This document shows positions 19,563 through 63,199 of a stretch of DNA of 64,000 nucleotides, piece after piece; the first letter of the stretch is position 1, and each line of letters starts with the position of its first letter. Origin of the DNA: Paraspadella gotoi (Eukaryota > Animalia > Chaetognatha); the NCBI GenBank assembly GCA_051294375.1, contig CM119265.1:11223818-11287817 (forward strand), in the 5' to 3' direction. Position numbers and translations under genes: made by a program. Under the pieces are notes generated by a model. It made no database searches and was not told where the DNA came from. It saw only the letters and a list, made by a program, of their open reading frames with translations.

Positions 19563-20075
19563 GCGAGATGCTTGGCGTGATGCAGACGGCAGGCGGTCCT
19601 CCGTCGACGCCGACCCAACACGAGGAACAAGGGATGTACCGTTTTCTCTCTTCGCCGCAACTGTTTAGCTTGCTGGACTGTCTCGCCGCCTCCCACGCTT
19701 TCGCCAAACGGTTCAACGGCGACCAGGACCAGCGGACTCTTCTGTGGCGCGCGGGCTTCAAGGGGAAGGCGAGGCCCAACCTTCTCAAGCAGGAGACGCA
19801 GAGCCTCGCCTGCTCTTTGAGAATCTTGTTCAGGATGTACAGCGACGACTCGAGGCGGGACTGTTGGCCACAGGTTGGAGTCTGGTGGCCACTAGTTGAC
19901 AAATTGTCCGTCCGGTGTTGACTCGGATTTTTTTTTGCGTTTTCCCTCTCAGGTTCAAGATCGCTTGATTCTCGTTGGAAAAGACTTGCTCGGTTATTTC
20001 TTGTCGCTCACCTCCGACTCGCACAGGGAAGCTTGGTCCAATCTGCTCCTGCTCTTTCTGACCCGCGTGTTAAAG
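19563..20075 (+). CDS. ARFGEF1: BIG1/BIG2-type Arf-GEF, block D (near-C-terminal exons 19563-19873, 19953-20075)
   Basis: [23 protein letters not shown]...[58 protein letters not shown]. These motifs match the BIG1/BIG2 C-terminus as I recall it. GT-AG sites are intact. The terminal exon was not found in the window. ARFGEF1 versus ARFGEF2 cannot be resolved. Confidence 0.9.
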
Positions 20076-20122
20076 GTAAGTGAAATCATATAGAGAAGGC
20101 TTCATATTATAAAATGTGGTAC

Positions 20123-20377
20123 TGTGGCGGTATATTCACACCGCCTCACGTCCACCATCCGTCAGCCAAATCCATTGGCTCAGAGGGGGAACACACCATC
20201 CCAGGCGTAGTGTTCCATCCACAGTCCTAACGACTTCCCTCTGCGTTGGCAAAGCGAGACCGTCCTAGGGTAACCGTGCCAGTGACTGGAGGCGTCACTG
20301 AGGGTCGGAAGCCCCCAAAGCCAACAGTGAGATGCCCCATCCCAATGGGCATCACAGGCAACCCGGCTGTTGCCATA
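20123..20377 (+). mobile_element. 255-bp hairpin-chain element, copy 2 (TSD GTAC)
   Basis: gtac|TGTGGCGG...TTGCCATA|gtac. Confidence 0.85.
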
Positions 20378-20658
20378 GTACCACTTTTTTGTTACCAGAA
20401 CACATTCCGAGGAAATTACTGGACCAAATTTATTGAAATTTAGTATGAACGATCCCTATGTGAATATAAATAGAACTATCGAGGCGAATTTCAATATTTG
20501 ACCTCTGAGCCAAGATATGGGGCCCCAGAGGGGTCACCATTAGGGGCAATAAATGGTCAAAAAATTTTTTAAATTTTTTCCATTTTTGTTTTGGACAGTT
20601 GCATAGACGTTTACTTTTCCACAAAAACATATTAATTACCACAGAAATATTAGTTTAC

Positions 20659-20920
20659 TATGGCAACAGCCGGGTTGCCTGTGATGCCCATTGGGATTGG
20701 GCAATGGGCATCTCACTGTTGGCTTTGGGGGCTTCCGACCCTCAGTGACGCATCCAGTCACTGGCGCGGTTACCCTAGGACGGTCTCGCTTTGCCAACGC
20801 AGAGGGAAGTCGTTAGGACTGTGGATGGAACACTACGCCTGGGATGGTGTGTTCCCCCTCTGAGCCAATGGATTTGGCTGACGGATGGTGGACGTGAGGC
20901 GGTGTGAATATACCGCCACA
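20659..20920 (-). mobile_element. Hairpin-chain element, copy 3, inverted (TSD TTAC)
   Basis: ttac|TATGGCAA...CCGCCACA|ttac, with a 7-nt insertion in one loop. Confidence 0.85.
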
Positions 20921-21766
20921 TTACCTTAATTTTCAGCTTCATGAACATCAGCAGTTCAAGTCAGTTTTGGAATAATTTAGGAAAATTGGAAGTAAAATGA
21001 TGAAACTTTTCTTAATTATTGAAAATATTTCAATTTAGTTTTAAAATGTTTTTTTTATATGCCACTAAAACAAGTTTGAGCAAACAATGTCGGATCTGCC
21101 TACAAAAATTAATTAATTAATTAATCGATTAATTAATTAATTAATTTTCATATTTAATAATTAATTATAAATTTATATACAGCTTATCATCATCGATGTC
21201 CTTAAAATAAAGTAAATGTGACTTATATTTTTTCCATTTAAACTCATTTCCACTGGCACAATTCCGTCAAAACTTTATATCTAGCTTCACACACTTTCCT
21301 TCCCGCTCACAAAATTTTATCTCAATCTATTATGGGTTAAAATAAGTAAAAAGAGTCAAGTAAATGTGACTCATATTTTTTTTCATTTAAACTTATTTCC
21401 ACTCGTACCAAAACTTTATATCAAGCTTCGTCACACATTTTCCTACCCACACACAAGATTTGAACAGAATCTATCCATCCAATTATATATGCGATTTTAT
21501 TCGAATACAACGAGATTGATTCAGTACAATCATCATCAACAAACAAACAAACAAATCACACACTTCCCTACCCACACACAAAATTTCATTCCAATCCATC
21601 CATCCAATCACGAGTAATTGGTGTTTTTTGTTAAGGTGGGACGGACGGATGGACGGACATTTTTTTGCATAATTTATCATTGTTTTTTTTCCTTTCTGTT
21701 TCGTTGTGATTTGATTTAGAACAAAGTTTGAAGAGAGATTTAACAACGATTTTTATTTCATAGTGA

Positions 21767-21808
21767 AACGGACATGTTTCGACTCACATACGAGTCTTCT
21801 TCAGCGCC
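21767..21808 (-). ncRNA. Minimal type I hammerhead ribozyme (PLE pLTR)
   Basis: ggcg CTGAAGA a GACTC gtatgt GAGTC GAAAC AT GTC cgtt. Confidence 0.8.
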
Positions 21809-60047: not shown

Positions 60048-60081
<34 letters not shown>

Positions 60082-60627
60082 TTTTTTACAAAAAATTTTT
60101 TAGATATAATGTGGTTCACTAATGTAAAAACGATGCCGCGAACAGGGGCGCGAACCGCGGGTCTTTGGGTAGAGAAATAGCTCACGCTACGTGCGGCGCC
60201 ATAAGTACTGCTGATTCTTTAACGAGTAAAGGGGCTGTAGAGCTCTCTCTCTCTCTCTTTTTAATTATTATATATCGCTCTTTCTCTTTTTCTCTGCAGC
60301 GGCTTGTCTCTCTCTCTCTCTCTCTTTTCTCTCTCTCTCTCTGTCTCTCTGTGTGTGTCTGTCCCTATCTGTCCGATCTTTTGCGTGATCGTTTGTTTTT
60401 TAAAAAATTCTGTGATTATTTTTTTCCTTCTAAAAACTTTTTATTATTGCCATTTATTCCGCGCTTTTTTTCAATACAAAATCCCAATATTTTCATCCGA
60501 GATTTTCGTGGATTTATCTCTTCTTTCTTTCTCTCTCTCTCTCTCTCCCTCTCTTTCTCTCTCTCTCTCTCGTCTTTCTTTCTCCTCTCTCTCTCTTCTC
60601 TCTCTCTTTCTCTCTCTCTCTTTTCTT

Positions 60628-60662
<35 letters not shown>

Positions 60663-62282
60663 TCTCTTTCACTCATACACGCATTTGTTGTTTTTATGAC
60701 TATCATCGCATCAATGAATGACAATCATCGCATCAATGAATGACAATCATCGCATCACTGAATGACTATCATCACAGCAGTGAATGACTACTCATCGCAT
60801 CAATAATTGATTATCATTGAATCAATAATCAATTCCTATAACATCAATAAATTACTATTACATCAATCAATTAGTATTACCTCAATCAATTACTAGTAAT
60901 CAACAATTCGTTATCGCATGATTCATTCGTTTTTTTCCCCGGTTTTTTTCATTAATTTTCTATGATAGTGGGCTCTGGCTCGATCTTGAGTCTTTTAAGA
61001 TTTTTTTATTTTATGTCTCCTTCTCTCTCTCTCTCTTTTCACTCTCTCTCTTTTCTCTCTCACTCTCTCTCTTCCTCCTCTCTTCTCTCTCTCTCTCTTC
61101 TTTTTATGCAATAGCGACGATCCTTATGCTTTTAAGATTTTTTTAACTTGCATCATTTTTTCAACTTTCATAATTTTTTCAACTTGCATTCCGTCAAAAC
61201 TTTATATCTAGCTTCTTCACTCACTTTCTCACCGGCTCACAAAATTTCATCTCAATCTATCATGGGTAAAATAAATAAAAAGATTCAAGTAAATGTGATC
61301 ATATTTTTTTCATTTAAACTCATTTCCACTGGTACGTTTCCACTGAAACTTTATATCAAGCTTCGTCATACGTTTTCCTACCCCACACACAAAATTTCTA
61401 CTCAATCTACCATCCAATTATGATTAATTGGAGTATTTATTGGTTAAAATAAGTAAAAGATTTTAGTAAATTCGACTTATGTTTTTTCCATTTAAACTAA
61501 TTTCCACTCACACGATTCCATCGAAATTTTATATCCAGCTTTATCACACACTTTCCTACCCACACACAAAATTTAATTCCAATCCAACCAGCCAATAACG
61601 AGTTATTGGAGCTTTTTGCTAAGATGGGACGGATGGACGGATTGATTGACTAATTAATTAATTATTGATTAATTTATTTACTAATTGATTAATTAACTGA
61701 TTAATTATTTGATTTTATTAATACATCCTGCAGTATACATTTAATATAAAAAGGAAAAAGAAGCATAATCAATTAGTAAAACAGGTTTTTTGTTTTTTCC
61801 ATTTAAACTCATTTCCACTCAAACTATTCCATCGAAACTTGATTTCCTGTTCAATCACACACTTTCCTACCCACATACAAAAATTCCAGGTCCAATCAGC
61901 CCATCCACTTACATGAGCAATTGGTGTTCAATAGTGAATATATTTTTTTGGTTTTTTTTCCATTTAAACTCATTTCCACTCGGACGATTCCATCGAAACT
62001 TAATATCCAGCTCAATCACACACTTACCTATCCACACACAAAATTTCATTTAAATCCATCCATCCAATCACGAGTAATTGGTGTTTTTTTGTAAGGTGGG
62101 ACGGACGGACGGACGGACACGACGGACGGCACGGACATCATTTTTTTTGCATAATTTATCATAATTCGATGTTCTGACATGATATAAGTGTGTGCCGACA
62201 ATATTGAGGGGGCGACCGACGGACCGAAAAAGTGAGTTATAAAAAGTGAGTTATAGAGTCGGGATCTGCTGATAAGCAGATC
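59493..62282 (-). mobile_element. Long DINE-1/Helentron-like element, tail-to-tail with the previous copy
   Basis: Same termini reversed; contains CT tracts, ATCATCGCATCAATG repeats and a tRNA-like segment. Confidence 0.8.
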
Positions 62283-62505
62283 GAGACCGTTTCGCCACGT
62301 TATTTTTCATTGTGTCATAAAGCAAAAATGTTGAAAAAAAGGGGTAGAATTTTGATGGGTTCCTTAGATTTCTCCACAATGTGAGGTCCGATTAAAGCGA
62401 AACTTGAGATTTACAATATTCCCGTCATTCCACATCTATCGATATAAAAATATAAGAAAAAAGCCACTGGCTTCTTTTTCTATAGCGGCTTCTTATTTTA
62501 TCTAG

Positions 62506-63199
62506 AAATCTTCGCCAGCGCGGACACGGCTTACGTATTGGCCTATTCCATCATCATGCTAACGACCGATCTCCACAGTTCCAACGTCAAAAACAAGATG
62601 ACCAAGGATCAGTACATCAAGATGAATCGTGGCATCAACGATTCCAAGGATTTGCCCGAGGCTTACCTCAGCGCCATCTACGACCAGATCAAGGGAGAGG
62701 AGATAAAGCTCAAACAAAAGAACAAGGTGCGTCAATCCCGAAATCCCATGAAGATCTCGAATATTTTAATTCTCCTCTTTTCCTCAGGGCAAAGAGACGG
62801 CGGTGATCACGACAGAGAAACAGCGTCGAATCCTCTATCACTCGGAGATGGAGCATATGGCGGCGACGTCCAAGGCGCTAATGGAGAGTTGCTCACATGT
62901 CGTCGCAAATTTCACATCGGCGATGCATCACGAGCACGTTCGGCCCATGTTTAAGGTCAGTTTTAATGTCTCCGACCGACGTTTTAGATGCCCTGATTTT
63001 TCCGCTAAAATTCAAAACAAACTTGTCAATGTGATTATTCTCTCAGCTGTGTTGGACTCCTTTTCTCGCGGCCTTCAGCGTCGGGTTACAGGACTGCGAC
63101 GATCCGGAAATCGCAAATCTTTGCCTGGACGGCATTCGTTGCGCCATAAGAATCGCCTGCATCTTTCACATGGAACTTGAGAGAGACGCTTTCGTTCAG
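62506..63199 (+). CDS. ARFGEF1: BIG1/BIG2-type Arf-GEF, block A (end of Sec7 domain and HDS1; exons 62506-62726, 62788-62955, 63047-63199)
   Basis: [116 protein letters not shown]...LERDAFVQ. Confidence 0.95.

What the first reader, a model, noticed from the sequence alone, without database searches (positions are those of the whole stretch)
19563..63199. ARFGEF/BIG gene in four same-strand exon blocks laid out in exactly reversed order (D-C-B-A), in phase at every junction
Seen: 19 intact GT-AG exons on the + strand, collinear within each block, with no exon duplicated. Protein order is A (62506-63199), B (43236-51289), C (30927-32236), D (19563-20075). Each block's last donor fits the next block's first acceptor in phase: ...[15 protein letters not shown] (phase 0), ...[13 protein letters not shown] (phase 2, AG+A), ...SCTP-G|EMLG (phase 1). 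The first two junctions also abut in conserved BIG1/2 sequence; C-to-D falls in a variable region. Only the C/B junction contains an N gap; D/C and B/A are contiguous as assembled. If real, the mRNA of this conserved gene would need three upstream-directed (trans- or back-) splices or DNA unscrambling, which I do not know of in animals on this scale. Inference, and the likelier explanation: contigs were scaffolded in reversed order (for example through mis-specified mate-pair orientation) and the gaps closed by long reads through HINE repeats. The N-free junctions contain indel-ridden HINE and DIRS sequence, and the window shows another gap-fill artefact.
Basis: partly seen in the sequence, partly recalled or inferred. 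Interest (0 to 1): 0.85.

Follow-up and report, generated by a model that had tools for sequence, protein, structure and literature searches.

The report
Misassembled BIG gene, flipped exon blocks
The exons of an ordinary trafficking gene (ARFGEF/BIG) lie in four back-to-front blocks in this assembly, but its last exon sits on the other strand beyond an assembly gap and one exon is absent, so the scrambling is most likely an assembly error, not biology.

Summary
Nineteen of 19 exons have AG/GT ends, and joined A-B-C-D they give 975 codons without a stop, 66-70% identical to animal BIG1/2. The last coding exon (E, 16308-16210) lies on the minus strand beyond a 100-N gap, heading a collinear minus-strand run (GMPR, a BTB-like gene). 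A 57-nt exon expected between D and E is absent from the window. So E-D-C-B-A is the order of a normal minus-strand gene with blocks A-D each flipped. Repeats in the N-free joins carry about 40 indels/kb, and a 25-N gap is flanked by a 2.46-kb duplicate; both point to noisy long-read gap filling. A likely-RNA contig splices D1-D2, and its 539 nt upstream equal C2-C5 plus 30 nt of C1, implying a normal C-D join. DNA contigs end at repeats, so the true genomic order could not be tested and no breakpoint was located. Verdict: scaffolding artefact about 0.92, dead real inversions about 0.04, a functional gene trans-spliced from five or more pieces about 0.03. The scan's notes show no such case in this genome; a swapped-order misassembly was noted in another genome.

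The parts
62506..63199 (+). Block A, exons A1 62506-62726, A2 62788-62955, A3 63047-63199; C-terminal part of the Sec7 domain and the region after it
   Evidence: (Pfam Sec7 E 1.7e-27)
43236..51289 (+). Block B, nine exons (43236-43461, 44668-44832, 45383-45492, 49859-50052, 50131-50196, 50508-50665, 50777-50956, 51019-51106, 51176-51289)
30927..32236 (+). Block C, five exons (30927-31066, 31497-31592, 31669-31782, 31862-31953, 32029-32236)
   Evidence: C2-C5 lengths fit the RNA-like contig (sum)
31145..31156 (+). Candidate 12-nt in-frame micro-exon between C1 and C2 (AG before, GTAAGT after); untested, would explain a graph branch at the C1 donor
   Evidence: sequence printed; inference
19563..20075 (+). 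Block D, exons D1 19563-19873 and D2 19953-20075 (BIG2_C domain)
   Evidence: (PF20252 E 1.7e-29); D1-D2 splice seen in run X9
16210..16308 (-).
17810..17909 (.). 100-N gap between E (minus strand) and D (plus strand); the left edge ends in the last 40 bases of a small repeat
39616..40311 (.). 696-N gap between C and B, repeat sequence on both edges
20076..30926 (.). D/C interval: palindromic MITE, HINE-like copy interrupted by a Penelope-like element, indel-rich HINE-like copy 25030-27807 cut short at its 5' end, partial second MITE
51290..62505 (.). B/A interval: DIRS-like element about 52130-57303 (inverted termini differ by 1 substitution and 7 indels; reading frames in short pieces), TC-rich array, two head-to-head HINE-like copies (57937-59370, 59490-62282)
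   Evidence: (RVT_1 E 6.5e-5, below cut-off)
8665..13595 (.). 2.46-kb direct duplicate on both sides of a 25-N gap (8 substitutions, 39 indels), inside GMPR intron 1
4836..15216 (-). GMP reductase gene, 8 collinear exons, ATG about 1 kb behind the stop of exon E
   Evidence: (IMPDH/GMPR domain)
132..4192 (-). Five-exon collinear gene with a BTB-like N-terminus (judged by eye) and a Gln-rich middle, ATG about 640 bases behind the GMPR stop
   Evidence: no Pfam hit for the one exon scanned

Best explanation
This is most likely an ordinary minus-strand ARFGEF/BIG gene whose repeat-separated exon clusters were assembled as short contigs and then likely scaffolded in the right physical order but the wrong orientation. 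Shown: block order E-D-C-B-A from left to right is the order a minus-strand gene needs, E is on the minus strand, and A-D are each on the plus strand. Inferred: a linking step (read pairs read in the wrong orientation, or proximity links that order short contigs well and orient them poorly) produced D-C-B-A; a later step attached it to the E contig with a fixed 100-N gap; long-read gap filling then closed D/C and B/A with repeat sequence, left 696 N at C/B, and never captured the 57-nt exon. The mRNA would be made by ordinary cis-splicing, with BIG likely the first gene of a BIG-GMPR-BTB operon-like run.
For: (1) Terminal exon on the opposite strand across a round 100-N gap, followed by two fully collinear minus-strand genes. 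Five independently placed pieces would fall in this one order 1 time in 120. (2) An exon conserved in 22 of 26 homologues examined is absent: best of 46,475 open 57-nt frames scores 22.9 against 59-79 for true segments, best with splice ends 1.2, so the assembly is incomplete at or beyond this locus. (3) Junction repeats differ by 39-48 indels/kb, mostly single bases (DIRS-like termini, three HINE-like copies), against 0-14/kb in 8 other repeat pairs. The 25-N gap with a 2.46-kb duplicate fits an overfilled gap as defined in PMC3504050, which ties overfilling to scaffolding errors (also PMC9635638). (4) Gap edges lie in repeats. (5) In run X9 a 5,800-nt contig matches D1 and D2 with 0 differences, skips the intron at GT..AG, and has 539 nt before D1, equal to C2-C5 (510, less one shared base) plus 30 nt of C1; one contig per DNA run covers D1 and runs into genomic flank. 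So the gene looks single-copy and likely yields a collinear message. (6) Both error types are described: reversed relative order from wrongly oriented pairs (10.1101/025650) and misoriented short contigs in correctly ordered scaffolds (PMC7672694).
Against: D/C and B/A contain no N. No breakpoint was found: the HINE-like copies at 25 kb and 58 kb share only 2 of 27 diagnostic sites, so they are not halves of one copy, and no block's unique flank is duplicated at another block's end. Repeat density does not mark the joins: 55-69% there, 67% in the collinear B3-B4 intron. Indel-rich repeats would also arise as unpolished repeats in reads that did span the joins. Four flips out of four is a lot for random orientation error. 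A collinear mRNA is expected under trans-splicing too.
Confidence: 0.92

Rival explanations
1. The layout is real and functional: BIG is split into at least five pieces plus an unplaced exon, and the mRNA is built by serial trans- or back-splicing, including a strand-changing D-to-E step.
For: Two joins are N-free; all exons are intact and in phase; D appears once per DNA run and a likely-RNA contig implies the C-D join. Unreviewed scan notes call this genome an arrow worm and report lola/mod(mdg4)-like loci in it; spliced-leader trans-splicing is reported for nearly half of the genes of one chaetognath (PMC12460157 passages).
Against: Needs at least four non-collinear joins in a housekeeping gene, whereas mod(mdg4) joins common exons to one variable 3' exon from its own promoter (PMC13490949 abstract). 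Nothing explains why the pieces keep the exact order of a minus-strand gene. The strand change coincides with a 100-N gap and a missing exon; only repeats lie between E and that gap. Neighbouring genes are collinear. Spliced-leader addition does not reorder exons.
Confidence: 0.03
2. The layout is real DNA but not the working gene: serial in-place inversions between oppositely oriented HINE-like copies produced a dead allele or copy in the assembled individual.
For: Oppositely oriented HINE-like copies flank blocks D, C and B, the geometry needed for in-place inversion.
Against: Such copies occur in both orientations throughout the window, so the geometry is cheap. Four adjacent inversions are needed. 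No exon shows decay. Depth over D1 equals one contig in each of 3 DNA runs, so no diverged second copy of at least 90% likeness was laid.
Confidence: 0.04
3. The germline locus is scrambled and is unscrambled in somatic DNA, as in ciliates.
For: Block reversal with one strand change resembles scrambled genes; degenerate TTAGGG-like repeats lie at 18650-19170, just upstream of D.
Against: The TTAGGG-like array is a high-copy repeat in all DNA runs laid (depth in the hundreds to tens of thousands). No unique pointer-like sequence shared between block ends was seen. The breaks fall in introns, where splicing makes precise DNA joining unnecessary. I know no such case in animals (recalled; not searched separately).
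Confidence: 0.01

Closest known systems
Animal ARFGEF1/2 (BIG1/BIG2, Sec71) large Arf exchange factors, e.g. P0003 Capitella, P0004 Lineus, P0016 Lingula, PDB 3ltl/3l8n
   Same: Sec7 and BIG2_C domains; 975 aa collinear at 66-70% identity; C-terminal exon E matches.
   Different: Only the arrangement in this assembly; the N-terminal 740 aa and one 19-codon exon are outside the window or missing.
Scaffolding errors: wrongly oriented read pairs (10.1101/025650, passages) and misoriented short contigs in proximity scaffolds (PMC7672694, passages), followed by long-read gap filling (PMC3504050, PMC9635638, PMC8848313, passages)
   Same: Short same-strand pieces in reversed order, equivalently correct order with wrong orientation; overfilled gap with duplicated flanks; low-accuracy filled sequence (88-95% for PBJelly in PMC8848313).
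   Different: Here two wrong joins appear fully closed; the passages read describe overfilled or inaccurate fills, not this case. Which programs made this assembly is not known.
Drosophila mod(mdg4) trans-splicing (PMC13490949, abstract and outline only)
   Same: An mRNA made from exons that are not on one collinear transcript is what the real-layout reading would need.
   Different: One trans join to alternative last exons with their own promoters; here at least four joins, no alternatives, and a gap at the strand change.
Chaetognath operons resolved by spliced-leader trans-splicing (PMC12460157, passages)
   Same: Head-to-tail minus-strand genes behind exon E, and 4,826 nt of contig behind D2, fit read-through into GMPR and the next gene.
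   Different: Operons keep exons collinear. Spacers here (stop to ATG about 990 and 640 nt, UTRs included) were not tested against that paper's 250-bp rule; no leader was seen; the taxon is not tested here.

Membership tests
ARFGEF/BIG family | Sec7 domain closest to BIG1/BIG2 | tested here: met
   Pfam Sec7 E 1.7e-27; best PDB hits BIG1 and BIG2, E about 2e-33, against 5e-20 for cytohesins
ARFGEF/BIG family | C-terminal region with BIG2_C, collinear with homologues | tested here: met
   PF20252 E 1.7e-29; one collinear alignment to 5 of 5 proteins
ARFGEF/BIG family | N-terminal DCB/HUS region | tested here: inconclusive
   No hit in the window for the first 740 aa of 4 of 4 proteins; expected to the right of the window
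Scaffolding artefact | Order and orientation changes fall at gaps or in filled, low-accuracy sequence | tested here: met
   2 of 4 joins hold N gaps; the other 2 hold repeats with 39-48 indels/kb
Scaffolding artefact | Reads or contigs show a different true adjacency, or none spans the join | not testable with these tools
   Only short contigs that end at repeats; breakpoint search negative
Trans-spliced split gene (mod(mdg4) type) | Non-collinear layout proven in genomic DNA | not testable with these tools
   No long reads or second assembly available
Trans-spliced split gene (mod(mdg4) type) | Joined mRNA exists and the joined form is absent from DNA | tested here: inconclusive
   C-D join inferred from lengths in one likely-RNA contig, and DNA contigs run into genomic flank at D1; an artefact predicts the same
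Trans-spliced split gene (mod(mdg4) type) | Own promoter or 5' end for each piece | not tested
   Contigs cannot show starts; only repeats lie between E and the gap
SL-resolved operon (BIG-GMPR-BTB) | Same-strand head-to-tail genes bridged by RNA | tested here: inconclusive
   Genes collinear; 4,826 nt behind D2 against 4,242 available to the window edge if read through, and about 1,150 to the GMPR ATG if not; letters not seen
SL-resolved operon (BIG-GMPR-BTB) | Spliced leader on downstream genes | not tested
   No reads laid on the GMPR or BTB 5' ends

The most novel reading that the evidence does not exclude
The layout is real: an essential single-copy Arf exchange factor gene is broken into at least five blocks in reversed order and on both strands, and its mRNA is rebuilt by four or more obligatory, ordered trans-splicing steps in an animal already rich in trans-splicing.
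Probability: 0.03. Interest if true: 0.9.

Novelty: not a real feature. Interest (0 to 1): 0.1.

Why it matters
As an artefact it is a warning: this assembly can show mis-oriented blocks with N-free joins, so gene models, apparent gene losses, and any scrambled or opposite-strand exon layouts reported from it need long-read support. If the layout were real it would be an animal housekeeping gene needing serial trans-splicing on a scale I do not know of.

Tried and rejected
No whole genome is held, so other genes could not be counted for reversed blocks. Nothing was laid on blocks A, B, C or E or on the joins, so A-B, B-C and D-E were not seen in RNA and the joins were not tested in DNA. The hope that other individuals would lack a young repeat and reveal the true flank gave nothing: loose ends at the repeat edges near D were mixtures of many copies (agreement 0.41-0.51). 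The idea that the repeat copies at 25 kb and 58 kb are halves of one true copy was rejected (2 of 27 sites shared). A 70-85 base piece shared by the D/C and B/A intervals is 78% alike with different flanks, not an overlap. Repeat density does not single out the joins. Two protein searches (D1, B1; longer proteins only) found no near-identical protein spanning a join: best 75% and 91%. I considered that the contig coordinates were reversed (4,826 nt upstream would fit a full mRNA) and rejected it, because other rows use native coordinates and D1 precedes D2 on a + record. Outer spans of adjacent block pairs are similar (21.7, 24.1, at least 23.7 kb), which would fit one library size, but the edges are my guesses and n is 3; little weight given. 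Paper searches for a precedent (listings and abstract starts only) showed no animal gene with this layout and no report of this exact artefact; three narrow searches do not show absence from print. Scan look-ups near this place and for reversed blocks returned nothing.
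Full report
What was checked. The window is 64 kb of an animal scaffold with three N runs: 25 N at 11125-11149, 100 N at 17810-17909 and 696 N at 39616-40311. No whole genome is held. Exon A1 is the C-terminal part of a Sec7 domain closest to BIG1/BIG2 and D1 is BIG2_C. A protein search with D1 returned BIG proteins of many animal phyla, best 67-75% identical.

tblastn with five of these proteins gives four plus-strand blocks in the order D, C, B, A, each collinear, none duplicated. All 19 exons have AG/GT ends, and joined A-B-C-D they are open in one frame (0 stops; 32 and 18 in the others), with phases 0, 2 and 1 at the block joins. The 975-aa product aligns in one piece at 65.7-70.1% to 5 of 5 proteins; A|B and B|C abut exactly, C|D lies in a variable region. 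D/C and B/A hold no N.

The same searches hit a further exon on the minus strand in 5 of 5 cases. It starts at 16308 behind an AG and ends in a stop at 16210: the last coding exon, here called E, 1.5 kb left of the 100-N gap. Between D2 and E the homologues have 19 residues (22 of 26 proteins gave the segment). No place in the window encodes them: the best of 46,475 open 57-nt frames scores 22.9 against 59-79 for true segments left out one at a time, the best with splice ends 1.2, and half-exon scans also fail (a first scan, agreed). Behind E come GMPR (8 exons) and a five-exon gene, both collinear on the minus strand. Read from the right, the order A, B, C, D, E, GMPR is that of a normal minus-strand gene and its neighbours. 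Only the orientation of A-D is wrong. Five independently placed pieces would take this order 1 time in 120; true physical order survives when a scaffolder links correctly and orients wrongly, or when blocks invert in place.

State of the sequence. The 25-N gap is flanked by a 2.46-kb direct duplicate with 8 substitutions and 39 indels, concentrated at one end. This matches the definition of an overfilled gap in the PBJelly paper, where 44% of overfilled gaps in one assembly came from scaffolding errors (PMC3504050, passages); PMC9635638 (passages) makes the same link. That this program writes 25 N and can merge reads from both flanks is recalled, not from a call. In the N-free joins, the termini of the DIRS-like element differ by 1 substitution and 7 indels in 172 columns, and the three long HINE-like copies differ from each other by 39-48 indels/kb, mostly single bases. 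Eight other close pairs show 0-14 indels/kb, and four comparisons of a junction copy with an outside copy show 23-27. PBJelly fills averaged 88-95% identity in a benchmark (PMC8848313, passages). Against over-reading this: repeat cover is 55-69% in the joins but also 67% in the collinear B3-B4 intron, and unpolished repeats in reads that truly spanned the joins would look the same.

Public runs. Eleven runs hold part of block B, all as contigs: four of a possible source sample, four of other samples in one study (0.72-0.80 of words), one guessed RNA with 0.37, and two small shares. Laid on 18365-21110, X9 has a 5,800-nt contig that matches D1 and D2 with no differences and skips the intron at GT..AG; 0 of 3 DNA runs show that joint. 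It has 539 nt before D1. C2-C5 sum to 510; less the one base shared with the acceptor this leaves exactly 30 nt of C1, the overlap expected where a graph of 31-letter words branches at the C1 donor, and a candidate micro-exon there would cause such a branch. The letters were not shown, so the C-D join is inferred from lengths, from one contig of one run. Behind D2 it has 4,826 nt. The missing exon, E and the spacer reach only about 1,150 nt to the GMPR ATG; read-through of spliced GMPR and the next gene gives 4,242 to the window edge, leaving 584 beyond it. That fits an operon-like run but is unproven. In each DNA run one contig of 459-761 nt covers D1 (0-1 differences), continues into genomic flank and stops at repeats. 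So D looks single-copy and is not a retrocopy, but DNA order is untested. X1 may be the source and is not independent.

Search for breakpoints. If both joins were merged inside HINE-like copies, those at 25 kb and 58 kb might share a stretch of one true copy. They do not: of 27 diagnostic sites the 58-kb copy is the odd one at 16, the 25-kb copy at 9, the 60-kb copy at 2. No unique flank of one block recurs at another's end. I could not place the breaks.

How it most likely arose. Shown: the order, the strands, the gaps, the missing exon, the noisy repeats. Inferred: short contigs around exon clusters were linked into D-C-B-A. [quoted passage not shown] Alternatively, proximity scaffolding orders short contigs well and orients them poorly (PMC7672694, passages), though four flips of four is many. 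The block was then joined to the E contig by its D end, which is the end truly nearest E, and long reads filled the false gaps with repeats. I put the artefact at 0.92 and cannot choose between the two causes.

Rivals. A functional split gene (0.03) needs at least four non-collinear joins, one across strands and across a gap with a lost exon. mod(mdg4) uses one trans join to variable last exons (PMC13490949, abstract). Unreviewed notes call this genome an arrow worm, report mod(mdg4)-like loci and an RNA-bridged operon in it; I did not test these. Spliced leaders and operons are common in a chaetognath (PMC12460157, passages), but they do not reorder exons. Real serial inversions giving a dead allele (0.04) have the needed inverted repeats but no decay and no second copy. 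DNA unscrambling (0.01) has no pointer sequences. Three paper searches (listings only) showed no precedent; they are narrow. No supplements were read. The scan holds no similar note for this genome or place; a swapped-order misassembly was noted in another genome.

Verdict. The arrangement is in the sequence, the gene is an ordinary and likely expressed BIG, and the scrambling is very probably not in the animal. Interest 0.1; long reads or four PCRs would settle it.

Noticed in passing
window 132-16308, minus strand: BIG last exon, GMPR and a BTB-like gene lie head to tail, and a likely-RNA contig carries 4,826 nt behind D2, which fits read-through of all three (operon-like). A TTTCAG lies about 90 bases before the GMPR ATG.
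   Followed up: partly
window 31145-31156: Candidate 12-nt in-frame micro-exon of BIG between C1 and C2.
   Followed up: no
window 8665-13595: 2.46-kb duplicate around a 25-N gap in GMPR intron 1, with indels concentrated at one end; likely an overfilled gap that inflates the intron.
   Followed up: yes
window 132-4192, minus strand: Gene with a BTB-like N-terminus (by eye), a long Gln-rich stretch and a short C-terminal segment that may begin an RRM-like strand; family not determined.
   Followed up: no
window 16310-17685, 21067-24835, 33145-35950: HINE-like copies are repeatedly the target of other elements: a palindromic MITE in two copies, and a Penelope-like element with a 14-base duplication in one.
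   Followed up: partly
window 18650-19170: Degenerate GC-rich tandem array with GGTTAGGG motifs, high copy in all DNA runs laid.
   Followed up: partly
window 52130-57303: Apparently full-length, young DIRS-like element with about 170-base inverted termini; reading frames fragmented, likely by read errors.
   Followed up: partly
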